Below are positions 922 through 50,807 of a DNA stretch of 64,000 nucleotides, in pieces. Where the stretch lies: the IMG/VR virus record IMGVR_UViG_3300033273_000398; one strand, written 5' to 3'. The notes under the pieces were generated by a model. The model did not search any database. It worked only from the letters and a program-made list of their open reading frames with translations, and had not been told where the DNA came from. The position numbers and the translations under genes were made by a program. The DNA is from an uncultured virus (IMG/VR IMGVR_UViG_3300033273_000398) (lineage: Duplodnaviria; Heunggongvirae; Uroviricota; Caudoviricetes). Position 1 is the first letter of the stretch; each line of letters starts with the position of its first letter.

Positions 922-3636
922 ATGAATACAAAACTATTTGGTTTATTACTTAGTCCTATTTCAAGACTAGAAGCTATCGCTGTAGATAACAATGAAAAGC
1001 TTACTAGTATTGAATTACTTACGATGGATGTAAAGAATATACAATCCGATACTGCGACTGAGCTTAAGAAGCAGACTACTATTCTTGGGGATATTAAGAA
1101 ACTTATAGAAGAAAGTTCTAAGGATAAAGAAAAGGAAATGGCGAAGGGCGCTGGATTTAAGCCCTTAAGTATTAAGGAAACAGGACTCGCTGCATTTATG
1201 ATAGTAGGGATATCTGCGGCTATAGTTGCATCTGCCCTTCTATTTTCATTTATACCGGCAGTTACTCCAATGCAAATGTTAACAGCAGCATTAATAGCAG
1301 TTACATTTGTGGCCGTGGCACCTGCATTTGTAAAGATAGCAGGTGTTCTTAGTAAAATGAAAGGTGAAACATCGGCTAGCTATAAAGGAATGTCAATGTC
1401 AAAAGTAGATTCTAGTGGTATTTTACCATTAGTTGCAGGGTCTCTAATCGCAATGGTAGGAATATCTGCTGCGATAGCTATTTCTTCATTGATATTACAG
1501 CTTGTAGTTCCGGTTCATCCTATAAAGCTTTTAACTGCACTTTTGATAGGGACTGCTATGATAGGAGCATCTTATGCATTTGCTAAGATAATAGAGAATA
1601 TGAAAGGCATGGGCATGAAAGAAGTACTTATGGCTACTGGCGCTTTAGTTCTTATTTCAGGAGCTATAGTCTTGTCAAGTATTATACTATTAGCAACCGC
1701 AGTGCCTAGCGCAATGCAAATGCTATCTTTCTTATTAGTAGGCGCAATTATGATACCTGCGACATACGCATTCTCTCTTTTATTAAAGAATATGAAAGGC
1801 ATGGGCATGAAAGAAGTACTTATGGCTACTGGATCTCTTGTCCTTATTTCAGGGGCAATTGTTTTAGCAAGTATAATAATGTTAGGTACTGCTATTCCTA
1901 GTCCTATGCAGATGTTATCATTCTTAATAGTAGGCGCAATTATGATACCGGCTACATATGCATTCTCACTCTTATTAAAGAACATGAAGGGAATGGGTGT
2001 AAAAGAAATCTTACTAGCTGCAGCATCTATGGTATTAATAGCAGGTGCAATAGTCGCAGTTGGTCATATATTTACTTTATATCCGGGTGATCCTTCTAAT
2101 TTACCAGGGGTTAAGTTTGCATTCCTATCAGGTTTGGTTATATTTACATTCTCGTTTGCATTTGCATTACTTGCTAAATCTTTAAAAGGAGTTTCATTTA
2201 AGGATATGGCAAAAGCAGTTGTTTCTATAGCACTTGTAGCGATAGCAATTGTTGGAGTAGCTTACATATTCCAATATCTTGCAAGCGTAGGAGGATATGT
2301 TGCCCCTCCAGCAGATTGGTCATTAAAGTCAGGACTTGCTCTTGTTATATTCTCAGCTGGATTTGGAGTAATAGCATTATTAACAAAGACCTTAGGAATT
2401 AAAAATATGTTTATGGGTCTATTAGGAACTGCGGTTGTCGCGCTTGGTATATTGGCTACTGCATGGATATTTAGCGCAATGCCAGATACATTTATTGCAC
2501 CTCCTATAGATTGGACGTTAAAGACTATGGTAGCTATGGCCCTATTTGCTGTACCAATAACTATTATAGGGGCTATTGCAATGTCGGGTGCTGGAGCTGC
2601 CGCTATACTATTAGGGGTTGTAGGAATGATAGTTATTGCCGCTGGTATATGGGTAGTTGCATGGATCTTTAGTAAGCTGCCTGATTTAACTTCAGTTTCA
2701 CAAATGCTTACTGATGCTCTTTTAACTCCAGTCAATGGAATCGTGGATGTTCTTGCTAGACTTAAAAATGAAGTTGGGGTTGAGAATCTTCTTCCTCTTG
2801 CAGGCGGTATAGTTGCAATAGCAGGTTCTCTATTAATACTTGCAGGTGCAATGGCCGGTACGGCTGCGGCTGGTGTTTTCCAGTCTTTGGGCAATGTAGT
2901 TAGCGGCGTTTTAGACTTTTTTAGTGGAAAACAAACAAAAGGTCCTATTGATATTCTTAAAGACCTTATTGCAATTGCACCGAGTCTACCCAAGTTATCT
3001 CAGCCGCTAGATATGATTGCTAATGCAATGAATGATGCTGATATTACAAATATGGTAGACAACCTAACTAAAATAGCAACGGCCATAAAGGCTACCGCAA
3101 TACAAGGGGCACAAGATCCTAATGTAACTACTACGATAGACAGACTAAGAGAGTTATCTAAGATGAGCTTTAAGGACCAGATAGAGGACCTAGAAGCTAT
3201 TGCTAAGGCATATAATAAAATAGCAGATACGACTAACAAGATAAATGTAGAAGCAATGGATTCTACTACGAATATGTTTAAGGCGTTAGCGTATCTCTCT
3301 CAAAATGGAGGTAAGACTGCGATTGAAGCACTTGGTGAGAACTTAATAGAGGCTGTTGAAGAATTGGCTAGTATGATTGCTGATTTTGAAGGAACGGTTA
3401 AAGACCAATCTGCTAGTAACAGAGGAGTAGCTGAACAATTTGGAGGACTTACCGATTCTATAAAGAGTTCTGTTGGTTCTTTCTTCGGTGGCGGTGGTTC
3501 TAAAGAGGCTTCGCCTGCTGAAAACAATGCAGAAGTTGCTAGACAAATGAGAAAGCTAGTTAAGATGTTACAAAGTGGAGATGCCAAGATTGTTATCGCA
3601 GATGTAAATGATTCTGCGGCACAAAAACTAGCTTAA
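922..3636 (+). CDS. Tail tape-measure-like protein
   Basis: 904 aa, Ala/Gly/Ile-rich with hydrophobic helical repeats; directly follows tail-chaperone-like genes. Confidence 0.7.
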   Translation: MNTKLFGLLLSPISRLEAIAVDNNEKLTSIELLTMDVKNIQSDTATELKKQTTILGDIKKLIEESSKDKEKEMAKGAGFKPLSIKETGLAAFMIVGISAAIVASALLFSFIPAVTPMQMLTAALIAVTFVAVAPAFVKIAGVLSKMKGETSASYKGMSMSKVDSSGILPLVAGSLIAMVGISAAIAISSLILQLVVPVHPIKLLTALLIGTAMIGASYAFAKIIENMKGMGMKEVLMATGALVLISGAIVLSSIILLATAVPSAMQMLSFLLVGAIMIPATYAFSLLLKNMKGMGMKEVLMATGSLVLISGAIVLASIIMLGTAIPSPMQMLSFLIVGAIMIPATYAFSLLLKNMKGMGVKEILLAAASMVLIAGAIVAVGHIFTLYPGDPSNLPGVKFAFLSGLVIFTFSFAFALLAKSLKGVSFKDMAKAVVSIALVAIAIVGVAYIFQYLASVGGYVAPPADWSLKSGLALVIFSAGFGVIALLTKTLGIKNMFMGLLGTAVVALGILATAWIFSAMPDTFIAPPIDWTLKTMVAMALFAVPITIIGAIAMSGAGAAAILLGVVGMIVIAAGIWVVAWIFSKLPDLTSVSQMLTDALLTPVNGIVDVLARLKNEVGVENLLPLAGGIVAIAGSLLILAGAMAGTAAAGVFQSLGNVVSGVLDFFSGKQTKGPIDILKDLIAIAPSLPKLSQPLDMIANAMNDADITNMVDNLTKIATAIKATAIQGAQDPNVTTTIDRLRELSKMSFKDQIEDLEAIAKAYNKIADTTNKINVEAMDSTTNMFKALAYLSQNGGKTAIEALGENLIEAVEELASMIADFEGTVKDQSASNRGVAEQFGGLTDSIKSSVGSFFGGGGSKEASPAENNAEVARQMRKLVKMLQSGDAKIVIADVNDSAAQKLA
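1596..1998 (+). repeat. 192-nt (64-aa) tandem repeat inside the tape-measure gene
   Basis: GAATATGAAAGGCATGGGCATGAAAGAAGTACTTATGGCTACTGG occurs at 1596 and 1788, with a third diverged start near 1980. Confidence 0.85.
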
Positions 3637-33599: not shown

Positions 33600-34043
33600 A
33601 TGAAACAGTATTTCATTCTAACAGCACTAGCCTGTATAAGTTTTGTAGGCTATTCACAAGTAGTTTCAAACCAAGTTACATATAATGGTGCTGCCCTTTC
33701 AGTAGAAAGTGAAACATATGACTATGGTACTATACTACAGGGTTCTGATCCATACGGGTTCTTTAATATTGTAAATTCAGGAACAGCTCCACTTATTTTT
33801 AGTAACTGTAAAGGATCGTGTGGATGTACAGTGCCTGACTGCGATAAGGCTCCTATTATGCCAGGTGATACGACTACTGTCAAAGTAAAATATGATACGA
33901 ATAGAGTAGGACCTATTAATAAGAGTGTTACAATTACTTCTAATGCACTTAACACGCCAGTACTGGTGCTTCGCATTAAAGGTATGGTACAGGCCCCTGC
34001 AGTGATGGGCGTGCAAGTCCCTGAAGAGGGTACCGAAGATTAA
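33600..34043 (+). CDS. DUF1573 Ig-like secreted protein
   Basis: YDYGTI...NSGTAPL....KGSCGCTVP...PIMPG...KYDT.RVG.INK.VT..SNA is typical of Bacteroidota DUF1573. Confidence 0.85.
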   Translation: MKQYFILTALACISFVGYSQVVSNQVTYNGAALSVESETYDYGTILQGSDPYGFFNIVNSGTAPLIFSNCKGSCGCTVPDCDKAPIMPGDTTTVKVKYDTNRVGPINKSVTITSNALNTPVLVLRIKGMVQAPAVMGVQVPEEGTED

Positions 34044-34064
34044 GGTAGAACAACGGTTCTACTT

Positions 34065-34149
34065 GGAGGATTGCCAGAGTGGTTAATGGAGCGGTTTGCT
34101 AAACCGTCAACGAGTAATTGTTGCACTGGTTCGAATCCAGTATCCTCCG
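34065..34149 (+). tRNA. tRNA-Ser(GCT)
   Basis: Anticodon arm GCGGT-TTGCTAA-ACCGT, long variable arm, G discriminator. Confidence 0.93.
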
Positions 34150-34155
34150 CAAAAT

Positions 34156-34212
34156 TTAACGATTTTTAACATTTGAGATTGTTAAACTAAACCAAAGATA
34201 CGTATATTAGCT
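34156..34212 (+). promoter_or_regulatory. Putative early promoter of the tRNA operon
   Basis: TTAACG/TTAACA at 34156/34166 and TATATTAG at 34203, the same layout as 32596, 51977 and 52972. Confidence 0.6.
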
Positions 34213-34223
34213 ACGTATCTGAT

Positions 34224-34243
34224 GAACGAAAGTTCTTTGACAT
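34224..34243 (+). promoter_or_regulatory. boxA-like antitermination element overlapping a GAAA-tetraloop hairpin
   Basis: AGTTCTTTGACAT resembles rrn boxA (GCTCTTTAACA); it overlaps GAAC-GAAA-GTTC just downstream of the promoter. Confidence 0.6.
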
Positions 34244-34314
34244 CGCGGTCTTTAGGTAAGACATAAATAAATTCGCTGATGACGCCACTGCGTAATAGAA
34301 TGGCGCACCAATAT

Positions 34315-34388
34315 GGGGACGTAGCTCAATTGGTTAGAGCATCAAGCTTATATCTTGAAGGTCGTAGGTTCAATTCCTACCGTCCCTA
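34315..34388 (+). tRNA. tRNA-Ile(TAT)
   Basis: Anticodon arm TCAAG-CTTATAT-CTTGA; canonical cloverleaf. Confidence 0.88.
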
Positions 34389-34396
34389 CATCGTCG

Positions 34397-34593
34397 GTTA
34401 CATGAGATTAGTTAACATGTAACTTCCATCGGAGTCTAATCACTCATGGATGGGAAATCTATCTCACGAAGTAATTTCATACACATACTAGATATGTTGG
34501 TAAGTTACCGTCAAGATAGTGGGGTGCGTTTAGTCGCCCTTAACAGTACTAAACTCCTTGGCATTGGATGAATGCAAGTGCCCTTCGGGGTGC
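34397..34593 (+). ncRNA. Structured spacer RNA, kissing-loop motif copy 1 (long form)
   Basis: Two hairpins with complementary loops GATTAG/CTAATC, then GGAAAT, a long stem, an H-type pseudoknot (GTTTAGT/ACTAAAC) and a terminal UUCG hairpin. Confidence 0.65.
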
Positions 34594-34599
34594 GGATCT

Positions 34600-34672
34600 G
34601 CCATTATAGCTCAGTTGGTAGAGCAGCGCATTTGTAATGCGCTGGTCGGCGGTTCGAGTCCGTCTAATGGCT
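34600..34672 (+). tRNA. tRNA-Thr(TGT)
   Basis: Anticodon arm GCGCA-TTTGTAA-TGCGC. Confidence 0.95.
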
Positions 34673-34676
34673 CACC

Positions 34677-34774
34677 TTTTGTATGTGTTGGTTAGGAAGC
34701 AGTACAAAACCAGTCGGAGGCTAACCACTCGCGGACATGGAAATCTACGCAGGTAGTAGTCGGGCTACGGCCCG
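34677..34774 (+). ncRNA. Structured spacer RNA, kissing-loop motif copy 2 (short form)
   Basis: Hairpin loops TGGTTAG/CTAACCA; shares TCGGAG.CTAA.CACTC..GGA...GGAAATCTA with copy 1; terminal UACG hairpin. Confidence 0.65.
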
Positions 34775-34778
34775 TTAT

Positions 34779-34851
34779 GCGTCAGTAGTTCAATTGGTAG
34801 AGCAGCGGTCTCCAAAACCGCAAGTTGTAGGTTCGAGTCCTGCCTGTCGCG
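34779..34851 (+). tRNA. tRNA-Trp(CCA)
   Basis: Anticodon arm GCGGT-CTCCAAA-ACCGC; one T-T mismatch in the acceptor stem. Confidence 0.92.
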
Positions 34852-34858
34852 CATAAAT

Positions 34859-34931
34859 GATCTCGTAGCTCAGCCGGTAGAGCACGACACTTTTAATGTT
34901 GGGGCCGTGGGTTCAAGTCCCACCGGGATCA
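34859..34931 (+). tRNA. tRNA-Lys(TTT)
   Basis: Anticodon arm CGACA-CTTTTAA-TGTTG. Confidence 0.93.
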
Positions 34932-34974
34932 CAGCGTGTGAGGCGACCGGGTAGTTCTAAATAGGACCACCATA

Positions 34975-35100
34975 CAAATAGCAGTGAGGGCCATTCATCC
35001 TAGAAAAAATGGCAACACGTAGTCACTGTAACCAATACGATGCGCATCGTAGAGGATCAAACTACAAGATGGGGTTCGACTCCCCACCTGCTACTATTTG
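34975..35100 (+). ncRNA. tRNA-like RNA with enlarged D and anticodon regions
   Basis: Perfect T-arm TGGGG-TTCGACT-CCCCA and acceptor-like TAGCAG/CTGCTA, but the GTAGT/ACTAC stem encloses a 37-nt insert rather than a 7-nt loop. Confidence 0.6.
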
Positions 35101-35112
35101 ATGAAGTCATAT

Positions 35113-35186
35113 CGGGATGTGGCACAGTTGGTTAGCGCGCCTGCTTTGGGAGCAGGAGGTCGCAGGTTCGAGTCCTGCTATCCCGA
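35113..35186 (+). tRNA. tRNA-Pro(TGG)
   Basis: Anticodon arm CCTGC-TTTGGGA-GCAGG; C1-G72 pair. Confidence 0.95.
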
Positions 35187-35257
35187 CGCCGCCTGAAGAC
35201 TGCAGCTTCGCCATAAACCAAGAACCTTTTTATTACAACATATACGATATATAGTAT

Positions 35258-35713
35258 ATGGAAAACAATAGAAAGGAAGTCAATCAGAAGATATCTGAAG
35301 GACTTAAAAAGTATTACGCAGAACATGGTCACCATCACCTAGGTAGAAAAGGTAAACCTTGTTCTGACGAAATGAAAGAAATCATAAGTAAAGGAGTTAA
35401 AGCGCATTGGGACAAAGTTGGAAGAAAAACAGAGGCCCAAAAGAAAGCTAGAAACAAAGCGAATGTTTACGCATATAGAGCTAGGAAACGGAATGCAATT
35501 CCACCTGACGCAGATCTAAAACTAATAAGATCAATATATGAAAACTGTCCAGATGGTTATCATGTCGATCATATTATAGCTCTTGCAGCAGGAGGTCCGC
35601 ATCACCAAGACAACTTACAATACTTGGATTCGTCTGAGAATTGTAGAAAGGGAACTAGAACTGAATATGATAAAACAAAAGCTTTAGATTGGAAGGAGTT
35701 TATTCCTCGGTAG
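35258..35713 (+). mobile_element. Free-standing HNH homing endonuclease with NUMOD3-like N-terminus
   Basis: YHVDHIIAL..GG.H..DNLQYL...ENCRKG motif; GKPCSDEMKEIIS NUMOD3-like; inserted between tRNAs with GATATATA at 35246. Confidence 0.85.
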
Positions 35714-35778
35714 CTCAGAGGTAGAGCAGCTGACTGTTAATCAGCGGGTCGGGATATCGTAATTCCCCCGAGGAGCCA
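35704..35778 (+). tRNA. tRNA-Asn(GTT) with atypical T-loop and encoded CCA
   Basis: Anticodon arm GCTGA-CTGTTAA-TCAGC; T-loop ATCGTAA. Confidence 0.85.
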
Positions 35779-35782
35779 AAAG

Positions 35783-35853
35783 GGCAGAAGTATTGGTCGC
35801 ACTGTCTGTCAAGTGATCTAGTTTCGAACGACCAGAAACTAGGTTGCGGTACT
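35783..35853 (+). ncRNA. Compact putative double-pseudoknot spacer RNA
   Basis: GGCAGA/TCTGTC and TGGTCG/CGACCA pair into the loops of the CACT/AGTG and CTAGTTTC/GAAACTAG hairpins. Confidence 0.5.
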
Positions 35854-35854
35854 C

Positions 35855-35936
35855 GGGGGTATCGCATAGTGGCTATTGCAGCTGACTGTAAATCAGCCGT
35901 CGTAAGACATCGGTGGTTCGAGTCCATCTACCCCCA
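35855..35936 (+). tRNA. tRNA-Tyr(GTA)
   Basis: Anticodon arm GCTGA-CTGTAAA-TCAGC; long variable arm. Confidence 0.93.
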
Positions 35937-35937
35937 C

Positions 35938-36066
35938 ATGAAAAAAGACGCACAGACTCTAGTAATAATGCTAGTTTTAACGTGTTTGATATTTGATCCT
36001 GAGGCTGCTAGAAATATATGTGCAGCTTTATTTGCCATATTCTTCTTTCAACGATGGATTAGATAA
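35938..36066 (+). CDS. Small membrane peptide (42 aa)
   Basis: MKKDAQTLVIMLVLTCLIF...AALFAIFFFQRWIR, between two tRNAs. Confidence 0.45.
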   Translation: MKKDAQTLVIMLVLTCLIFDPEAARNICAALFAIFFFQRWIR

Positions 36067-36086
36067 AATGTATGCCATGCAAGCGC

Positions 36087-36161
36087 GGGCGGTTAGCTCA
36101 GCTGGTTCAGAGCACCTCGTTTACACCGAGGGGGTCGGGGGTTCGAGCCCCTCACTGCCCA
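36087..36161 (+). tRNA. tRNA-Val(TAC)
   Basis: Anticodon arm CCTCG-TTTACAC-CGAGG. Confidence 0.95.
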
Positions 36162-36168
36162 CATGCAT

Positions 36169-36241
36169 GCGCCCGTAGCTCAGCGGTTAGAGCAGTTGAC
36201 TCATAATCAATTGGTCGTAGGTTCAAATCCTACCGGGCGCA
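36169..36241 (+). tRNA. tRNA-CAT, probably Ile2 (lysidine type)
   Basis: Anticodon arm GTTGA-CTCATAA-TCAAT; C4-G69 and C5-G68 pairs typical of TilS substrates; lacks initiator features. Confidence 0.85.
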
Positions 36242-36248
36242 CTTACAT

Positions 36249-36323
<75 letters not shown>

Positions 36324-36328
36324 CAAAA

Positions 36329-36400
36329 GGTTCTGTGGCTGAGTAGTTAGGCAAAGGCCCCGCAAGGCCCTTTACGGTGGTGCAAATCCATCCGGAACCT
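36329..36400 (+). tRNA. Atypical tRNA-Cys(GCA)
   Basis: GGTTCTG/CGGAACC acceptor with U73; anticodon loop CCGCAAG (C33); extended, mismatched stem; T-loop TGCAAAT. Confidence 0.6.
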
Positions 36401-36402
36401 CA

Positions 36403-36431
36403 TGAAACTAAATCAAAGAGTTTAGTACAAT
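36403..36431 (+). promoter_or_regulatory. Putative ECF-type promoter TGAAAC-N17-TACAAT
   Basis: Recurrent motif; lies directly upstream of the IMPDH/GMPR gene. Confidence 0.6.
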
Positions 36432-36447
36432 TAATAAAACTCTTAAT

Positions 36448-37491
36448 ATGCAAAGAAAGGCATTAACTTACGACGACATTCAGCTTATTCCTATGATGTC
36501 AGACATTAGTACAAGACAGACAATAGATCTTCGTACTCGAGTCTCTAAAAACTATTATATTGACGTTCCACTTGTTGCATCATGCATGGACACTGTTTGT
36601 GACAGTTCTATGGCTATTGCTATGATGCAGATGGGTGGCGTTGGATGCATTCACCGTTTTATGACCATTGAGGAACAAGTTGCTGAAGTTGCTAAAGTTA
36701 AGGACTTTCAAAACAATTCAGCTGAATCATGTTGGGATCTTCCTATTATGGCAGCAGTTGGTGTCGTTGGAGACTTCTTTAATCGAGCTGCCGCGCTAGC
36801 TGAAGCCGGATGTGATATTATCGTTATTGACGTAGCGCATGGACATCACTCTAACATGAAGACAGCCATTGAAACCCTAAAGCTTAACTTGCCAGACCAC
36901 GTTGATGTTATTGCAGGTAATGTCGCTACAGCACGTGCAGCTACAGATCTATGTGAATGGGGAGCTGATGGCCTTCGTGTAGGTATTGGCGGAGGAAGCC
37001 TTTGTACAACTAGAGTTCAAACAGGATTCGGCGTGCCTAATGTAACATCTATTGAAGACTGTTCTAAAGTAGCAGATGATTATGATGTTCCTGTTATGGC
37101 TGATGGTGGAATCAAGTCATCTGGGGATATTGCCAAGGCACTTGCAGTTGGAGCAGACTGTGTTATGTTAGGTTCACTCCTTTCTGGAACTAAAGAGTCT
37201 CCAGGTGCAATCCTAGAAAAGCCAGGAGGTCTGTTTAAAAGGTACCGTGGATCTGCCTCTCTAGAGACTAAGATTACACACAACCAGAAGCAGCGTAATG
37301 TTGAAGGTGAGTCTACTATTGTACCATTTAAAGGTGGAGTTAAGTTTATTCTTGCAGGTCTTCTTGATGGTATCAGATCTGCATTTTCATATGCCGGTTC
37401 TCACAATATCAAAGACTATCACTCAAAGGCAGATTACAACGTGGTTACTAATGCAGGAGCGATGGAGGCTAAGCCACATCTTATCATGTAA
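36448..37491 (+). CDS. IMP dehydrogenase / GMP reductase family protein (no CBS domain)
   Basis: [53 protein letters not shown] and VEG motifs. Confidence 0.92.
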
Positions 37492-44849: not shown

Positions 44850-47800
44850 ATGCCTACATTACCAACTGATGGAATTTACAATTTACCTAGTTATATAGGT
44901 ATAAATTCAACTGATTCACCACATGGTGTGTTCCCCTCTATACTCCAAGAAGGAGGTTATCAGGAACATGCTACTATTACAGATAGAAACGATATACCTG
45001 TACTTATAGGTCAATCTGGAGCTATATTATCTAGTGATGGTTTAGCGTCCGGTAGAAGAAGGTTAGGTATGACAGTTTATGTCATATCTGAAGATAAATT
45101 CTATAGACTTATACCTAAAGGCTATTTTGGTAATGGCGGTGATTTAGGTCTTACTGCATGGAATTCTCTTAGCGATAATGATAAGGCAATTCTTTTAGAT
45201 CCAGAGGCTTCTTTTTCTGTACCCGACCCTAATGGAGGTCTTGGTGCTACTATAGATTTTACGGGTTCTGGAATCGCAGATGATTGTTGGGTAGAAGGAT
45301 TTGGCCAGAAAGGAGAGAAGGGAGAAAGGGGTAGTGATGGCCTTAAGGGCGAGAAAGGTGCAACTGGTCCACAAGGTCCAAGCGGTGGCAGTGGACAAAA
45401 GGGTCAGAAAGGTGAACCTGGAGCGTCCGGCTCAGATGGTCAAGATGGCGGTTGCGTTAGAATAGAATTTGACAGAGATTTACCAGTAGATGTTAATACA
45501 TTTGCTATTGTAGATCAAGATAATTTAAATGTACTTTTAGGTGGATTTACTGACGGTACAAACAGTGAGTATAATTTAGTTTGGCGCGTTGGTTCTCCAA
45601 TAGGTCAAATTATTCCTGGAAGCTTTGGTGCAGAATATGAAGGATATCAACTTACTATTACAGGAAATGCATATGAAGACGACTATGGTAATGGGCAAGT
45701 AGTTAATTCATTTGCAATAAAGCCGCTTGCTGCTCTTTCTATACTAACTATATATGGAAATTCTTATGTTGCTCTTAGATGTAGAGTAATAATAACACAG
45801 GGAACAGGTGCAGTATATCTTAGAGACAAAGATGAATACAGAATATGTAGTATTGCTCTAGGAGAAAAAGGTGATAAAGGTGACGAAGGTGCTCAGGGTC
45901 CTAGTGGAGAGAAGGGAGATGGCGGATCTCAGGGACAAAAGGGTGAATCAGGTAATAATCAGGGATGTAGAACGTCTTTATACAATAATGGACTAAGTGG
46001 CCAAGGGCATGGATTAGAAGGATCAAATGTATTTAGTTTATTGATTGATAATCAAGACGGAACTTATGCAGTGGCTCCTAAGGTAGAAGATGCTACGACA
46101 CTAGCTATGTCACAGTCGTCTTTAGCGTATCCTCTACTTGCACAGCCAGTTAACAATAGTTTATCTGCTTCTAGGATAATTATAACTATTAGTGGATTAT
46201 TCAGCGACGGCGCAGGAAACGAGGCTCAAAATACACTTGTTTTCAAGGTAACGGACTATGTAGCTACTAACTATACTTCAGGTTGGTATCAGATGAACGG
46301 CTTAGCTTTACAGATTCCACAGGGATCTGATGCTGCTGCAACCTATGGTGCATATAGATATCCTGTAAACGGAGAGCAGCATACAATATGTTTAGGATAT
46401 GATAGTGTTGTAGGTGAAAAGGGTGAGCCTTCTGTAGAACCTGGACCACAAGGTCCTACAGGTGCTACAGGTAACGATGGTACATCTGTAAATATTAAGG
46501 GTAGCTATACTGGCCCTGTGGCTACTCAGCCTTCGGTTACTGGTGCAACTGCAGGTGATGGTTATCTTAACGATGCGGATGGCCACCTATGGGTTTGGGA
46601 TGGATCATCTTGGAGTGACGTAGGTGAAATTAGAGGTCCTAAGGGTCAAGTAGGTCCGCAAGGTGCCGATGGTACCACAGGACCACAAGGTGATACAGGT
46701 GCTAAGGGTGACGTAGGCCCACAAGGTCCAAGCGGCGGAACAGGTGCTAAGGGTGACATAGGACCAGTACGTATACCTAGATTAGTTGGATCTGATTCAG
46801 GAACCGGAGCTACAACTCCAACTGCAGGTACATTTGACGACGGAGATGTTTACTTTATTAATGGAGATGCATATCAGTACGATCTAGCTACAACATCATG
46901 GGTTGATACTAATACATTCCTATTAGGTCCACAGGGCGATCAGGGAATACAGGGTCTAGACGGTGTAACTGGTGCACAAGGTCCACAAGGTGATACAGGT
47001 CCTCAAGGAGCCGATGGTGCCAAGGGTGACGCTGGACCAGTAGGACCAGTTGCTATATTGAGAGGATCATCTTCAGGAACTGGAGCTACAACTCCAACTT
47101 CTGGAACATTTAATGAAGGCGACCTTTACTTTGTTGATGGCGTTGCTTATCAGTATGATTCTGTTAATACAACATGGGTTAATACTAATACTACATTATT
47201 AGGTCCACAGGGTCCTGTAGGTTTACAAGGTCTAGACGGTGAAACAGGTGCTACAGGTGCACAGGGTGCAACTGGTGCCGACTCTACAGTAGCAGGTCCT
47301 CAGGGTCCTACAGGTGCTACAGGTAACGATGGTACATCTGTAAATATTAAGGGTAGCTATACTGGCCCTGTGGCTACTCAGCCTTCGGTTACTGGTGCAA
47401 CTGCAGGTGATGGTTATCTTAACGATGCGGATGGTCACTTATGGGTTTACAATGGATCTGGATGGACTGATGCTGGTGAAATTAGAGGTCCTAAGGGACA
47501 AACTGGTGAAACCGGCGGTACAGGACCTCAAGGAAGTACAGGTGCACAGGGTGCAACTGGCGCACAAGGTGCAGATGGCGGAACTGGTGCTAAGGGTGAC
47601 ATAGGACCAGTACGTATACCTAGATTAGTTGGATCAACTGCAGGAACTGGAGCTACAACTCCAACTGCAGGCACGTTTGACGATGGAGACGTTTACTTCG
47701 TTGACGGCGATGCATATCAGTACGATCTAGCTACAACATCGTGGGTTGATACTAATACATTCCTACTAGGTCCACAGGGATCTGTAGGTTTACAAGGTCT

Positions 47801-50800
47801 AGACGGTGAAACTGGTGCACAAGGTCCACAAGGTGATACAGGTCCACAAGGAGCCGATGGTGCCAAGGGTGACGCTGGACCAGTAGGACCAGTTGCTATA
47901 CTGCGAGGATCATCTTCAGGAACTGGAGCTACAACTCCAACTTCTGGAACATTTAATGAAGGCGACGTTTACTTTGTTGACGGTATTGCGTATCAATATG
48001 ATCTAGCTAACACAACATGGGTTAATACTACCGCATTCTTATTAGGCCCACAGGGTCCTGTAGGTCAAGGAGGTGACCAAGGTCCTAAGGGTGATATTGG
48101 TCCTAAGGGTGAATTAGGAGCATGTGTAAGTTTAAATTATGAAAACACTAATGTCGCAACAAGCGGACTTGGAGCTGACGAGTTTTGTTTAATAGCACCA
48201 ACAGGAGGAACTTATACTCCTATAACTTCTCTTGCTGTAAACGACGAGGTTAGACTTTTAATTCCAGGAAACTCTTCTCTTGGCTTCTTAATACCTACTC
48301 AAATAGATAGAGGAGTTAGTATTAATATAGGAGGTACTGTATTTGCAGACGATCAAGCAAATACTGGAGTCAATGCGCTAGACTTTAGATTTGTTATAGG
48401 TGGTAGTGGATTTGGCGTGGTTGTTATTGACAGTGCATATTATTTTACATATCATGTAAAATTAATCGGTGATGCTGGTTCAAGTTATACACTTCCAATA
48501 GATGGAACTGGTTATACAATATGCGTAAATGCAGTAGGTTATGAAGGAGCACAAGGTCCTCAGGGTGATGATGGTCCTAAAGGAGACGTAGGTACTTCAA
48601 TTAATATAAAAGGCACAGCAGTAGGAACAGGCAACCTTCAATACCTTGCACCACATGATATTAATGATGCATATGTTATTCTAGGAGATTTATGGGTTTA
48701 TGATGGCCTTACGGGAGACGGCCGAGTTAGTGGCTTCTTAAATGTAGGTCAGTTCACAGGTGATAAAGGTGAAACAGGACCTAAAGGTATCCCTGGTCCT
48801 GTTCCTAATTTTGTTGGATCTTCTGCAACTGGAGCTACAACTCCAACTTCTGGAACGTTTGATAACGGAGATGTATATGTTGTTGGAAAGAGAATGTACC
48901 AGTATGATGTAGATACTACGTCATGGGTAGATACTTCTATTGATATTTCAGGTCCTAAGGGAAGTCAAGGTCAGGACGGTTCTACTGGTTCAACTGGTGA
49001 TACAGGTCCTCAAGGACCAACAGGTGCTAAGGGTGAAATAGGACCTCAGGGCGCCGATGGTACATCTGTAAGCATTAAGGGTAGCTATACTGGCCCTGTG
49101 GCTACTCAGCCTTCGGTTACTGGTGCAACTGCAGGTGATGGTTATCTTAACGATGCGGATGGTCACTTATGGGTTTACGATGGTTCTAGCTGGACTGATG
49201 CTGGTGAAATTAGAGGTCCTAAGGGTGATCCTGGATCTGTGGGTCCTCAAGGTAATGACGGTGATAAGGGTGATACTGGTGTTTCTGGAAAATCAGGTGT
49301 ATTTAGATACCAATATGATGGATTAGGAACTAGTACTTCAACAGTCGCAACAAGTGAATTTAGAGTAGTTAATGCAGGTTCTAATGGATTTGCGCTTGGC
49401 GCATGTGATATTATTATGTCTACGACAGATTGGGAATCAACCTCAACAGGTACATTTATTTCAGAACTGTCAGTAGGTACAAAGCTTAAGTTTACAAAAG
49501 TTAACGGGCCTTCTGTGTTCTATGTGGCAGAAATTACTAGGATAACTATTCCAGCACAGGGTGTTATTAAGATAGAAGTAGATGGACTTTATATAGGAGG
49601 TCAATCTGGAGCTGCTGATAAGGATCTATTTGATATGTCTGTAATTGATAAGGGAGACAAGGGAAATGTTGGTTCAAGAGGTCCTCAAGGCTTTAAAGGT
49701 GATAAGGGTGCTGGTGAAAAGGGTGAAAAGGGTTCAAAAGGTACTCAAGGTGAAAAGGGTGAACCTGCACCAACTGGCGCTACAGAAAGGTCAAATGATG
49801 GATCTACTGCTATTGAATATAGAAGAGGTACGTTTATAAGCGGAAATATCTTTACACAAAGTGTTGATGGTGAGTTTGATGCATTTACAACCTTTACTGC
49901 TGATCAGCAGCCAACTGGTCTAATAAGATCAGATCAACCTGCTGCAATAAAGATGCTTGTTTTTGATGACGTTGCAAGTTTCTCTAACGCTCTTGGAACC
50001 GCAGCTATGAGCAAGTATTGGACAAGTAGAAACGTTCCGTTTATTATCTCTCTAATGAGAGACGGTCTTTACGTTGAGTTCTTAGTTAAGAGAGTCCATG
50101 AAAATACAGCAGTTGGCGGTGCAAAGGATTACAGATTAGAAACTGTTCACTTGTATAGCACAGGTCCTATATTAGGAACCGATCCTATTACAATTGGATT
50201 TGGATCTGTAAACACAACTGATACGGTTGCTTCTGTATATGACGCATCTACTTCGAATGTATCTTGTAACGGGAGTGCTAAATTGGCTACAGTGACCTTG
50301 CCGACAATTAAATTCGGTGATGTTCCATTGGATGATTTTGTAACGGCATGGCAGGTTACATATGACTTTATAGTTGATCCTGGGTCTGATGTTCCTGCAA
50401 ATAGCACATTAGTTTATGATTCATGGCTTTCTAAAGTATCTTATCCAACATACATAAAGTCGTCCTTGAATACAAGTACAACGCATACGCCAGCGAATGC
50501 ACACGGTGGATACATAAAAGATTCAGTATCTCTATCGTTTATGATAAATGATTCCGATCTTGCACCTGGTGATGTTCTTGAGCTATACGTTGGATTTAAA
50601 CTAATGAACAGCTATGGTCAGATTATAAACTTAACAAGTCCTGGCGGCCCTGCTGGAAGTATAAATGGAGTACAAAATGTTCATATGACAATAACTCCTA
50701 TTTCATACCACGAATGGGTTAATGACGAGACCACTGGATTTAATATGGTGTCAGGGGTTGGTGAAACAGGAGTTCAATTAACATCTGATTCAGCACCTCC

Positions 50801-50807
50801 TTTTTAA
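44850..50807 (+). CDS. Collagen-like long tail-fibre protein
   Basis: Many Gly-X-Y runs alternate with GDGYL...[11 protein letters not shown]-type knuckle modules; 1985 aa. Confidence 0.8.
46452..49222 (+). repeat. Near-identical internal repeats in the collagen fibre gene
   Basis: 131 nt identical at 46452-46582 and 47304-47434, a third copy at about 49074-49178, and an approximately 850-bp unit duplicated in tandem. Confidence 0.9.

What the first reader, a model, noticed from the sequence alone, without database searches (positions are those of the whole stretch)
34397..34774. Repeated, covarying kissing-loop RNA motif in consecutive tRNA spacers (candidate new ncRNA or ribozyme class)
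Seen: the Ile-Thr and Thr-Trp spacers are homologous. Copy 1: hairpin GTTACATG/CATGTAAC with loop GATTAG, then TTCCA-TCGGAG-T-CTAATC-ACTC-AT-GGA-TG-GGAAATCTA. Copy 2: hairpin TTTTGTA/TACAAAA with loop GGTTAG, then CCAG-TCGGAG-G-CTAACC-ACTC-GC-GGA-CAT-GGAAATCTA. The loop-loop helix shows a compensatory change (GATTAG/CTAATC versus GGTTAG/CTAACC), and the first stem differs in sequence yet still pairs. After GGAAAT both form a CTA.../...TAG stem (long in copy 1, short in copy 2) and end in a UNCG hairpin 4-6 nt before the next tRNA. Copy 1 has an extra pseudoknot. I cannot match this to hammerhead, HDV/theta, twister, pistol, tmRNA, RNase P or riboswitch consensus by eye. Inference: a stable RNA released by tRNA processing, acting as a ribozyme, protein decoy or anti-defence RNA.
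Basis: partly seen in the sequence, partly recalled or inferred. Interest (0 to 1): 0.88.

Follow-up and report, generated by a model that had tools for sequence, protein, structure and literature searches.

The report
New kissing-loop RNA in phage tRNA array
Two gaps between tRNA genes of an uncultured large marine or estuarine phage each encode a copy of a small folded RNA from an uncatalogued family, whose two hairpin tips are kept complementary across related phages, but what the RNA does is unknown.

Summary
The Ile-Thr spacer (34390-34599) and the Thr-Trp spacer (34674-34778) are paralogues. Each has about 70 nt made of two abutting hairpins, H1 and H2. The H1 and H2 loops are complementary over 6-7 nt. 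An invariant AAAU follows, then a CUA...UAG stem of variable length, then a UNCG-capped hairpin 4-6 nt before the next tRNA.

Homologues came from one IMG/VR contig and ten metagenome loci. They give three loop pairs, all perfectly complementary: GAUUAG/CUAAUC, GGUUAG/CUAACC and GGUUAA/UUAACC. On a MAFFT alignment, 96 of 96 cells of the loop-loop helix plus H2 pair, and 5 of 16 pairs change on both sides. All 6 differences between the two orthologous copy-1 modules form 3 compensating pairs.

Rfam 15 matches nothing there but the tRNAs. Models built here find no copy in 61 related phage loci, T4, HK022 or prokaryote genomes. A third subtype has no tRNAs beside it and ends in an intrinsic terminator, so the RNA is an autonomous module and not a spacer-specific signal.

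My best reading is a discrete, nuclease-resistant, trans-acting RNA. In arrays, tRNA-processing enzymes would release it. That step is inferred. Function is untested, and nothing supports a ribozyme. The kind is known (T4 RNAC/RNAD, ROOL/GOLLD, manA); the family is new and narrow.

The parts
34315..34389 (+). tRNA-Ile(UAU), the upstream neighbour of copy 1. No CCA is encoded.
   Evidence: ARAGORN; Rfam tRNA at 76.1 bits.
34390..34599 (+). Copy 1 (subtype c1), the whole Ile-Thr spacer, 210 nt.
   Evidence: Sequence; fold. Orthologues are L002:3728-3961 and L069:461-672(-), with an RNAalifold consensus of 66 pairs, 6 of them with compensatory change. Model hits: R1 at 90.3 bits and R2 at 78.4 bits.
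34396..34424 (+). Copy 1 H1: a 9-bp stem with an 11-nt loop. Loop-1 hexamer GATTAG is at 34406-34411.
   Evidence: H1 pairs in 9 of 9 positions on A7. 4 of 9 H1 pairs change on both sides across the family.
34425..34454 (+). Copy 1 H2: 10-11 bp with single-nucleotide bulges on the 3' strand. Loop-2 hexamer CTAATC is at 34436-34441.
   Evidence: 10 of 10 H2 pairs and 6 of 6 loop-loop pairs.
34455..34458 (+). Invariant single-stranded AAAU linker between H2 and H3.
   Evidence: Invariant in A6 and A7. In the metagenome hits this invariance was forced by the search pattern.
34459..34519 (+). Copy 1 H3: a long arm closed by CUAUC/GAUAG (the window itself adds a sixth pair, CUAUCU/AGAUAG).
   Evidence: The interior varies among the three orthologues with compensatory changes.
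34521..34557 (+). Copy 1 H4 domain, containing GTTTAG (34528-34533) paired with CTAAAC (34549-34554).
   Evidence: Nested helix in the RNAalifold consensus. The pairs never vary, so the topology is unproven.
34578..34593 (+). Copy 1 terminal hairpin capped by UUCG, 6 nt upstream of tRNA-Thr.
   Evidence: The stem covaries, for example column pair 218-225 is CG in 2 sequences and UA in 1.
34600..34673 (+). tRNA-Thr(UGU), lying between the two copies.
34674..34778 (+). Copy 2 (subtype c2), the whole Thr-Trp spacer, 105 nt. This is the minimal form of the RNA.
   Evidence: Model hits: R1 at 70.8 bits and R2 at 91.4 bits. Orthologues are L071:561-665, L066 and L074:570-674(-).
34677..34709 (+). 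Copy 2 H1. The loop contains TGGTTAG at 34689-34695.
   Evidence: TTGGTTAG also occurs in the D-loops of tRNA-Ile, tRNA-Pro and tRNA-His of the same array.
34710..34740 (+). Copy 2 H2. The loop contains CTAACCA at 34721-34727.
34741..34756 (+). Copy 2 AAAU linker (34741-34744) and short H3 CUAC-GCAG-GUAG (34745-34756).
   Evidence: The H3 loop differs among orthologues (GCAG, GUAA, GUAG).
34761..34774 (+). Copy 2 terminal hairpin capped by UACG, 4 nt upstream of tRNA-Trp.
34779..34852 (+). tRNA-Trp(CCA), the downstream neighbour of copy 2.

Best explanation
The two spacers encode paralogous members of an uncatalogued family of small structured RNAs, 105 nt and 210 nt long.

Fold. The defining module is about 70 nt. 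Hairpin H1 (9 bp) abuts hairpin H2 (10-11 bp, with single bulged purines on its 3' strand) with no linker. Their loops form a 6-7 bp Watson-Crick helix that locks the two hairpins side by side. An invariant AAAU leads into a stem closed by CUA/UAG, which can be 4 bp or about 60 nt long. The RNA ends in an extra-stable capped hairpin.

How it is made (inferred). In tRNA arrays the RNA is co-transcribed with the tRNAs. It is cut out as a discrete molecule by the enzymes that mature its neighbours: a 3' tRNA endonuclease after the discriminator of the upstream tRNA, which encodes no CCA, and RNase P at +1 of the downstream tRNA. The terminal hairpins and the locked core then protect it from exonucleases. 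In a third subtype the same module is made as the 3' end of an ordinary transcript that stops at an intrinsic terminator.

How it acts (inferred, least certain). It acts in trans as a protein-binding RNA. The likely binding surface is the invariant bulges of H2, the AAAU linker and the CUA/UAG junction. This would make it a scaffold or decoy during infection.

What is shown: the fold, the covariation, the strand, and the fact that the module moves between contexts. What is inferred: processing, accumulation, trans action and the protein partner.
For: Structure
- On MAFFT alignment A6 (9 sequences, 6 distinct), the loop-loop helix plus H2 pair in 96 of 96 cells.
- 5 of 16 pairs change on both sides. 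Two of these are in the loop-loop helix: AU in 3 and GC in 3 at one pair, GC in 5 and AU in 1 at another.
- With the 3' partner slid by 1-3 columns, only 26-46% of cells pair and no pair is compensatory.
- H1 pairs in 90.5% of 63 cells, with 4 of 9 pairs changed on both sides. With the refined register on A7, H1 pairs 9 of 9 in 7 of 8 rows.
- The two orthologous copy-1 modules (window and L002) differ at 6 of 66 positions. All 6 fall into 3 compensating pairs, 2 in the loop-loop helix and 1 in H2. Placing 6 sites at random into 3 of 25 predefined pairs has P = 2.5e-5.
- H1 and the two loops lay outside or at N positions of the search pattern, so their pairing was not forced by the search.

Strand
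- The c1 rows have 3 G-U pairs, which would be A-C mismatches on the opposite strand.
- The strand is the same as that of the tRNAs.
- No ORF of 50 aa or more overlaps 34044-35131.

Autonomous module
- The same RNA sits after Ile or Thr and before Thr, Trp, Lys or a second Ile-like tRNA in different arrays.
- Copy 1 is absent from L074, where Ile and Thr are 5 nt apart, while copy 2 is present there.
- Subtype c3 (L067=L075, L068, L070, L072) has no tRNA within the 430-600 nt held. Its 5' hairpin abuts or overlaps the stop codon of a small ORF.
- The three c3 loci scanned end in an intrinsic terminator. L075 has 9 stem pairs and L072 has 12, each followed by T7.

Release by processing
- The RNA fills the spacers flush against the tRNAs, and its capped 3' hairpin ends 4-6 nt before the next tRNA.
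- T4 sets the precedent. Its small stable RNAs rnaD and rnaC lie 1 nt after tRNA-Arg and 6 nt apart and still have no known function (PMC9697503, passages read).

Weak hint of expression
- Contigs from three metatranscriptome libraries cover 34300-34424, 34414-34535, 34600-34713 and 34672-34762.
Against: - No direct evidence of a discrete RNA species. The RNA-library contigs have depth 2-4, are Logan contigs that cannot show ends or strand, and may derive from DNA.
- MFE z-scores are ordinary, -1.59 and -0.8.
- The family is narrow and shallow, with only 7 distinct 5' modules from about five lineages. The invariance of TCGG.G, AC.C, GGA and GGAAATCTA among the metagenome hits was imposed by my search pattern.
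- Covariation cannot tell a loop-loop helix within one molecule from one between molecules. For ROOL, a kissing loop first read as tertiary turned out to be quaternary (bioRxiv 10.1101/2024.12.08.627333, passages read).
- No protein partner, conserved neighbouring gene or target is known. The ORFs upstream of c3 differ between contigs.
- In the c3 loci the 5' end of the RNA is undefined. The promoter scan of L072 found none, and the one weak site in L075 is on the opposite strand.
Confidence: 0.45

Rival explanations
1. Cis-acting spacer element. The folded module serves only the tRNA transcript. It would space and present neighbouring tRNAs to RNase P and the 3' processing enzymes, or block exonucleases, and would be degraded after cleavage.
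For: It lies flush between tRNAs, with a capped hairpin 4-6 nt before the next tRNA. Other spacers of the same array are also structured and conserved. A different conserved structured RNA occupies the same post-tRNA-Ile slot in relatives L005, L006 and L007.
Against: The same module occurs with no tRNA nearby and with its own terminator. Many tRNA pairs in the same array are separated by only 4-7 nt and need no such element. In L074, Ile and Thr are 5 nt apart without copy 1. An invariant junction and a covarying tertiary helix are more than an exonuclease block needs.
Confidence: 0.15
2. The loop-loop pairing forms between molecules. H1 of one RNA pairs with H2 of the next, giving dimers, chains or closed rings. 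This would be a miniature relative in principle of ROOL/GOLLD cages.
For: The two loops are complementary to each other but not to themselves, which allows head-to-tail assembly. The two paralogues in the window carry different loop codes (GAUUAG/CUAAUC and GGUUAG/CUAACC), which would limit mixing. ROOL and GOLLD are phage RNAs often found near tRNA islands, and they oligomerise through kissing loops.
Against: H1 and H2 abut with no linker and have matched, conserved lengths (9 bp plus loop linkers against 10-11 bp). That fits a side-by-side kiss within one molecule. Orthogonality is only partial, because GGUUAG can pair with CUAAUC through one G-U. There are no data on assembly.
Confidence: 0.12
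3. tRNA-directed RNA. The H2 loop is built to pair with the D-loop of unfolded or precursor tRNAs. H1 would be a D-loop mimic that masks H2 until it is displaced.
For: Copy 2's H1 loop shares TTGGTTAG with the D-loops of tRNA-Ile, tRNA-Pro and tRNA-His of the same array. All 4 occurrences in 64 kb lie in the array. By my own inspection, each of the three H2 loop variants could pair with GGUUAG if G-U is allowed.
Against: The octamer count is not unusual; 29 of 100 shuffles reach 4. The c1 and c3 H1 loops (GAUUAG, GGUUAA) are not D-loop sequences. Changes in the H2 loop are matched by Watson-Crick changes in H1, not held to a fixed tRNA target. The c3 loci show no tRNAs.
Confidence: 0.07
4. Self-cleaving ribozyme of a new class that cuts the polycistronic transcript.
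For: It has a compact fold with a tertiary loop-loop helix and invariant junction nucleotides, as in the hammerhead ribozyme (recalled). The family is uncatalogued.
Against: No match to any Rfam ribozyme model at E up to 10 or in the homologues at E up to 1. Between tRNAs, RNase P and the 3' enzymes already define both ends. In c3 the RNA is simply the end of a terminated transcript. Nothing marks a cleavage site.
Confidence: 0.05
5. A put-like nascent RNA that binds the transcribing RNA polymerase and makes it resistant to pausing and termination across the long, hairpin-rich tRNA array.
For: HK022 putL and putR are about 70 nt, made of two stem-loops with bulges, and occur as two sequence-related copies per genome (PMC9378689, passages read). 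The present module has the same size, two-hairpin layout and duplication. In L075 it sits upstream of a terminator that is followed by a same-strand ORF.
Against: Model R2 finds nothing in HK022 (0 hits). In L072 an ORF on the opposite strand ends 4 nt beyond the end of the RNA, so nothing obvious lies downstream to read through into. The window array shows no excess of terminator-like sites: 4 found against 2.9 expected, and only one on the + strand. put RNAs have no reported loop-loop helix; 'kissing' and 'pseudoknot' occur 0 times in that paper.
Confidence: 0.05
6. Ligand-sensing aptamer (riboswitch-like), with two parallel hairpins joined by their loops as in purine riboswitches (recalled).
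For: Side-by-side hairpins with a loop-loop contact, and invariant junction nucleotides.
Against: No closing P1 helix is supported. The RNA is not in a 5' UTR in any of the three contexts. There is no expression platform. No riboswitch family appears among the Rfam rows.
Confidence: 0.04
7. Not a functional RNA: a DNA-level repeat or a chance similarity.
For: Only two copies in the window. MFE z-scores are ordinary.
Against: Compensatory changes occur in three helices across contigs. G-U pairs are specific to the tRNA strand. The module is conserved in different genomic contexts.
Confidence: 0.02

Closest known systems
Phage T4 small stable RNAs RNAC (species 1, 139 nt) and RNAD (species 2, 119 nt)
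   Same: They are small non-tRNA RNAs encoded inside a phage tRNA cluster, flush against a tRNA, two per genome, of about 100-200 nt. rnaD lies 1 nt after tRNA-Arg and rnaC 6 nt after rnaD. Their function is still unknown (PMC9697503). That they are released by tRNA-type processing is my recollection, not a result of any call.
   Different: No homology: model R2 gives no hit on rnaC or rnaD with filters off, best hit elsewhere E 0.43. T4 rnaC folds with a T-arm-like 3' hairpin, which the kissing-loop RNA lacks. The T4 pair is tandem, whereas here a tRNA separates the copies. The present family also occurs away from tRNAs.
ROOL and GOLLD RNAs (Rfam; Nature 2025, PMC12286853 / bioRxiv 10.1101/2024.12.08.627333)
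   Same: They are phage and prophage RNAs of unknown function, 'often near tRNA islands', held together by covarying kissing loops.
   Different: They are far larger (GOLLD members often exceed 800 nt; about 600 nt for ROOL is recalled), against 105-210 nt here. Rfam gives no match. Their kissing loops are partly intermolecular and build cages, and no assembly data exist here.
HK022 put RNAs (putL, putR)
   Same: About 70 nt, two stem-loops with bulges, and two related copies per phage genome.
   Different: No model match in HK022. put RNAs act in cis on RNA polymerase downstream of early promoters. They have an RNA triplex and no loop-loop helix. The context in L072 argues against a read-through role.
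manA and wcaG RNA motifs of marine T4-like cyanophages (Weinberg et al. 2010, PMC2864571)
   Same: They are structured RNAs known almost only from marine metagenomes and large marine myoviruses.
   Different: They typically lie in 5' UTRs and are read as riboswitch candidates. No RF01745 or RF01761 row appears at E up to 10 in 33900-36600.
Parallel hairpins joined by loop-loop contacts in hammerhead ribozymes and purine riboswitches (recalled)
   Same: Two adjacent hairpins of matched length whose loops touch.
   Different: Those need a third, closing helix and a conserved catalytic or ligand-binding core at the junction. No closing helix is supported here, and neither family appears among the Rfam rows.

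Membership tests
Any Rfam 15 family (4227 models). I recall these to include hammerhead, HDV-like, twister, twister-sister, pistol, hatchet, tmRNA, RNase P, riboswitches, manA, wcaG, GOLLD, ROOL, YrlA and C4. | A covariance-model match at or near the family's gathering score. | tested here: not met
   Gathering-threshold scan of the whole window: 15 hits, all tRNA. Scan of 33900-36600 at E up to 10: 28 rows. The only row touching the element is YrlA at 34738-34817, 18.7 bits against a gathering score of 69, E 1.5, and it spans the tRNA-Trp start. Scan of eight homologue loci at E up to 1: no row on the element.
T4 RNAC/RNAD-type stable RNAs | Encoded within a phage tRNA cluster, flush with tRNA genes. 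| tested here: met
   for the window; for T4.
T4 RNAC/RNAD-type stable RNAs | Sequence and structure homology to rnaC or rnaD. | tested here: not met
   R2 with filters off on T4 66000-76000 gives no hit overlapping L078:4909-5172. The best hit anywhere is 10.4 bits, E 0.43.
T4 RNAC/RNAD-type stable RNAs | Accumulates as a discrete stable RNA during infection. | not testable with these tools
   Only low-depth contigs from RNA libraries are available.
HK022 put RNA | About 70 nt, two adjacent stem-loops with bulges, and paralogous copies. | tested here: met
   description of put.
HK022 put RNA | Homology to putL or putR. | tested here: not met
   R2 on the whole HK022 record: 0 hits at E up to 10.
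HK022 put RNA | Lies between a promoter and terminators, with genes to be read through into. | tested here: inconclusive
   In L075 a terminator is followed by a same-strand ORF. In L072 an ORF on the opposite strand ends 4 nt beyond the end of the RNA. The window array shows no excess of terminators.
HK022 put RNA | Binds the RNA polymerase beta' zinc-binding domain and suppresses termination. | not testable with these tools
   Needs transcription assays.
ROOL / GOLLD | Match to the Rfam model, and a large size (GOLLD often over 800 nt). | tested here: not met
   The element is 105-210 nt.
ROOL / GOLLD | Homo-oligomerisation through kissing loops. | not testable with these tools
   Covariation is compatible with pairing within or between molecules.
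The new family defined here (5' module, model R2) | H1 and H2 abutting, loops complementary over at least 6 nt, then AAAU and a CUA-closed stem. | tested here: met
   Both window copies score 91.4 and 78.4 bits with R2. All 8 rows of A7 pair 6 of 6 in the loop-loop helix and 10 of 10 in H2.

The most novel reading that the evidence does not exclude
The covarying loops may pair between molecules rather than within one. In that case this 105-nt RNA would be a minimal self-assembling unit: head-to-tail rings or chains made by phages alongside their tRNAs, a miniature counterpart of ROOL/GOLLD cages. The two different loop codes in one genome would keep the two paralogues from mixing. Equally unexcluded, and of similar weight, is that the locked two-hairpin core is a decoy for a host RNA-binding defence or decay protein.
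Probability: 0.12. Interest if true: 0.8.

Novelty: new member of a known kind. Interest (0 to 1): 0.55.

Why it matters
Phage tRNA clusters are usually annotated as tRNAs plus 'spacers'. Here two spacers, and by the look several others in this phage group, are conserved folded RNAs in their own right.

This one has an unusually clean comparative signature for a tertiary or quaternary contact. Every substitution between orthologues is compensated.

It exists in a 105-nt minimal form that is small enough for probing, crystallography or cryo-EM. It also occurs both as a tRNA-flanked cassette and as a terminator-ended gene, so array-embedded and free-standing versions of one RNA can be compared directly.

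If phages routinely load extra small RNAs into tRNA operons so that host tRNA-processing enzymes deliver them, this family is a tractable model. It would bear on the 50-year-old question of what T4 RNAC and RNAD do.

As it stands the function is unknown and the family is rare, so the finding is a solid new RNA family and not a new mechanism.

Tried and rejected
- Known RNA families: rejected by three Rfam scans.
- Cultured phages: megablast and blastn against 50,697 phage records matched only the tRNAs. The c3 RNA matched nothing. tblastn with the 705-aa neighbouring protein found no match.
- Own genome: none is held.
- Relatives: 62 loci found with the adjacent sigma-factor gene. Only the window and the L002/L004 contig carry the RNA (R1; R2). 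Other rows had E 0.4-4.6. L059 was read and is an unrelated stretch with no loop partner.
- Whole records of five relatives, one a complete 256-kb genome: 1 of 5 positive, and that one is the L002 contig.
- IMG/VR pattern scans: 0, 1 and 1 contigs, always the L002 contig.
- Prokaryote genomes: the strict pattern gave 0 hits. The relaxed 22-nt pattern gave 8 hits. In 6 of them only the typed 22-26 nt match the model; the other 2 gave weak full-length alignments of 18.3 and 16.6 bits. The two that I read have no H1 partner and no GGAAATCTA. I count all 8 as chance.
- Records behind the metagenome loci are not held, so wider context for c3 could not be fetched.
- T4 and HK022 homology: rejected.
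- A sigma-70 promoter seen by eye in front of c3 in L070 and L072 (TTGACT, 17 nt, TAAATA) was not called by the scan and is dropped.
- A tRNA-derived origin of H1 (acceptor plus D-arm layout in copy 2) does not hold in c1 or c3, by my inspection. Dropped.
- A kink-turn reading of the H2 bulges fails: the non-bulged strand lacks the GA step, by inspection of A7 against the recalled consensus.
- The supplement of PMC10690425 (10,006 viral candidate RNAs): no occurrence of the 9-nt core in the 6 files searched. Three files were not searched, so prior listing there is not excluded.
- Literature searches turned up no description of this motif in the listed titles and abstracts. That is not proof that none is in print.
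- Earlier notes of this scan: nothing by place or by sequence.
- Sequencing runs: parts of the stretch without cover are not taken as evidence of anything.
- Tools not used: the protein-level tools search for homologous proteins, structure prediction and complex prediction. The finding is an RNA.
Full report
**What is there.**

The window carries a 13-gene tRNA array on the + strand, 34065-36401. tRNA-Ile(UAU) ends at 34389, tRNA-Thr spans 34600-34673 and tRNA-Trp starts at 34779. The finding therefore covers two complete spacers: 34390-34599 (210 nt, 'copy 1') and 34674-34778 (105 nt, 'copy 2'). No ORF of 50 aa or more overlaps them.

- Hairpin H1 is followed directly by hairpin H2.
- Then comes GGAAAUCUA. 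Its two Gs close H2, and AAAU is single-stranded.
- A stem closed by CUA/UAG follows. It is 61 nt in copy 1 and 12 nt in copy 2.
- A UNCG-capped hairpin ends 6 nt (copy 1) or 4 nt (copy 2) before the next tRNA.

Loop 1 and loop 2 are complementary. Copy 1 has GAUUAG and CUAAUC. Copy 2 has UGGUUAG and CUAACCA. The MFE z-scores are ordinary (-1.59 and -0.8), so energy alone would not single these spacers out.

**Is it known?**

Rfam 15 gives only tRNAs at gathering thresholds. At E up to 10 over 33900-36600, nothing lies on the elements except one sub-threshold YrlA row that spans the start of tRNA-Trp (18.7 bits against 69). The same holds for eight homologue loci. Cultured-phage records match only the tRNAs.

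**Relatives.**

No genome is held for the window. Neighbouring genes include a sigma factor, a phosphoesterase, an HNH endonuclease inside the array, a dehydrogenase and giant tail-fibre-like proteins of up to 2034 aa.

The sigma factor recovers 62 IMG/VR loci, from contigs of up to 256 kb. One of them is a complete genome with terminal repeats. The phage is therefore an uncultured large myovirus-like phage. An estuary metagenome run holds near-identical pieces, including 34605-34773 with no difference.

In most of the relatives scanned a tRNA array begins downstream of the sigma gene within the 6 kb held. Only the closest one (L002/L004, sigma factor 100% identical, dehydrogenase fragment 94% identical) carries the RNA.

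A metagenome scan used a pattern that fixed only the H2 stem, bulges and linker, and left both loops and all of H1 free. It gave ten loci. They fall into three subtypes:
- **c1**, about 210-235 nt, after tRNA-Ile: the window, L002 (the same contig as L073) and L069.
- **c2**, 105 nt, after tRNA-Thr or tRNA-Ile: the window, L074, and L066 (the same sequence as L071).
- **c3**, about 205-215 nt: L067 (the same sequence as L075), L068, L070 and L072.

**The fold is under selection.**

On a MAFFT alignment from loop 1 to the linker (A6; 9 sequences, 6 distinct), the 6-bp loop-loop helix and the 10-bp H2 pair in 96 of 96 cells. Five of the 16 pairs change on both sides. Sliding the 3' partner by 1-3 columns drops pairing to 26-46% and leaves no compensatory pair.

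Within the loop-loop helix, one pair is A-U in three sequences and G-C in three. Another is G-C in five and A-U in one.

H1, which was no part of the search pattern, pairs in 90.5% of cells with 4 of 9 pairs changed on both sides (on a model-fitted alignment). On MAFFT alignment A7 with the refined register it pairs 9 of 9 in 7 of 8 rows.

The sharpest single fact concerns the two orthologous copy-1 modules, from the window and from L002. They differ at six of 66 positions, and all six form three compensating pairs, two in the loop-loop helix and one in H2. The random expectation for that placement is 2.5e-5.

Three G-U pairs in the c1 rows fix the strand as that of the tRNAs.

One caveat applies. 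Among the metagenome hits, the invariance of TCGG.G, AC.C, GGA and GGAAAUCUA was imposed by my pattern. Only the window copies and L002 show it independently.

GUUUAG (34528-34533) and CUAAAC (34549-34554) in copy 1 do pair. In the consensus of three orthologues the pairing is a nested helix. An alternative hairpin-plus-pseudoknot reading is possible. The pairs never vary, so neither reading is proven.

**It is an autonomous module.**

The flanking tRNAs differ from array to array:
- Ile-c1-Thr and Thr-c2-Trp in the window.
- Ile-c1 followed by a second Ile-like tRNA in L002.
- Ile-c1-Lys in L069.
- Ile-c2-Lys in L071.
- In L074, Ile and Thr are 5 nt apart with no c1, while c2 follows Thr.

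Subtype c3 has no tRNA in the 430-600 nt held on either side. Its 5' hairpin abuts or overlaps the stop codon of a small ORF, and that ORF differs between contigs. The RNA ends in a strong intrinsic terminator: 9 stem pairs in L075 and 12 in L072, each followed by T7. In L072 an ORF on the opposite strand ends 4 nt beyond the end of the RNA, so the RNA is the end of its transcript.

An RNA that keeps the same core whether it is wedged between tRNAs or terminated on its own is unlikely to be a mere tRNA-processing signal.

**How it most likely works.**

Shown: a compact, selected fold on the tRNA strand, with a module that moves between contexts.

Inferred from the established tRNA maturation pathway (RNase P at +1 of each tRNA; endonucleolytic 3' cleavage after the discriminator where CCA is not encoded, as here): in arrays the whole spacer is released as one molecule. 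Its ends are buried in H1 and in a UNCG hairpin.

Further inferred: it accumulates and acts in trans, most plausibly by binding a protein. The likely surface is the invariant bulged purines of H2, the AAAU linker and the CUA/UAG junction.

I put the fold at about 0.9. I put 'discrete trans-acting RNA' at about 0.45 overall. The protein-binding part is the weakest link.

The only expression data are low-depth contigs from three metatranscriptome libraries. They cover parts of both copies and could be DNA carry-over.

**Rivals.**

- **A purely cis role (0.15)** is weakened by c3, and by the many 4-7-nt tRNA spacers in the same array.
- **Intermolecular loop pairing (0.12)** cannot be separated from intramolecular pairing by covariation. 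The ROOL/GOLLD work shows exactly this trap in phage RNAs that sit near tRNA islands. The zero-nucleotide junction and the matched, conserved lengths of H1 and H2 favour an intramolecular kiss, but this needs experiment.
- **A tRNA-directed role (0.07)** is prompted by the identity of copy 2's loop 1 with the D-loop octamer of three tRNAs in the array. It does not extend to c1 or c3.
- **Ribozyme (0.05), put-like antiterminator (0.05) and aptamer (0.04)** have resemblance only. Model searches in HK022 and T4 were negative, and the put paper reports no loop-loop helix.

**Comparison with what is known.**

In kind, the nearest precedents are these:
- T4's RNAC and RNAD: two small stable RNAs flush against tRNA-Arg, still of unknown function.
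- ROOL and GOLLD.
- The marine cyanophage motifs manA and wcaG.

In family it belongs to none of them.

Earlier notes of this scan report several other uncatalogued structured RNAs, some with loop-loop pairing, in tRNA arrays of other uncultured phages. None looks like this one by sequence. I did not test those notes. They lower the surprise of the category, not the reality of this family.

**Verdict.**

It is a genuine new, narrow RNA family with an exceptionally clean covarying loop-loop helix. It is a new member of the known kind 'small structured RNAs of phage tRNA clusters'. Its function is unknown. Interest is moderate (0.55).

Noticed in passing
window 34933-35112 (Lys-Pro spacer); also L002:4034-4212, with its start conserved in L001 from 3832: This 180-nt conserved spacer ends in a T-arm-like hairpin (GGGGUUCGACUCCCC). 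An acceptor-like stem pairs with a segment about 130 nt upstream. This is a tRNA-like end without a tRNA body, reminiscent of the T-arm-like 3' end that T4 rnaC shows when folded. ARAGORN calls no tRNA or tmRNA there. Rfam gives only a 15-nt tmRNA T-arm match (E 0.02).
   Followed up: partly
L005:6823-7038, L006:6823-7025, L007:7040-7252: In relatives whose sigma factor is 72-73% identical, the slot after tRNA-Ile holds a different conserved structured RNA of about 210 nt. RNAalifold gives 55 pairs, 11 of them with compensatory change. In L006 it ends in a hairpin followed by a U-run. The post-Ile slot therefore seems to accept interchangeable RNA cassettes.
   Followed up: partly
window 35779-35854 (Asn-Tyr spacer); L002:4382-4457; L001:4084-4160: This 76-nt spacer forms two hairpins (z -2.42). 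It is conserved in three contigs, with a few compensatory changes in the second hairpin. A fourth sequence that I added (L007:7674-7803) is a different spacer and should be ignored.
   Followed up: partly
window 34151-34314 (Ser-Ile spacer); L002:3490-3652; L001 about 3320-3465: Structured spacer (z -3.2) with a conserved GAACGAAAGTTCTTTGACATC segment upstream of tRNA-Ile in all three contigs. It may hold the array's promoter -35 element (TTGACA), but the promoter scan did not call a site there.
   Followed up: no
window 35258-35713 (+), inside the Pro-Asn spacer: A 151-aa HNH / endonuclease VII-like ORF sits inside the tRNA array (PHROG 1035, E 1.9e-10). T4 likewise has the homing endonuclease segB inside its tRNA cluster. 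In L075 a GIY-YIG-like ORF follows the c3 RNA (the family name rests on recalled motifs).
   Followed up: no
window 34330, 34688, 35128, 36265 (+): The octamer TTGGTTAG occurs four times in 64 kb, and all four are in the array. Three are in the D-loops of tRNA-Ile, tRNA-Pro and tRNA-His, and one is in loop 1 of copy 2. The count itself is not unusual: 29 of 100 shuffles reach it.
   Followed up: partly
L070 and L072, about 25-50 nt upstream of the c3 RNA (minus strand): A partial duplicate of the H2 5' half (AATCGGAGGCTAA) lies just upstream of the full RNA. It may be a scar of duplication or recombination.
   Followed up: no
window 6437-29978 and 44850-50807: A run of giant ORFs (1387, 1678, 1990, 2034 and 1985 aa), mostly without PHROG matches. 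One has a baseplate-wedge connector domain and one a many-domain tail-fibre signature.
   Followed up: no
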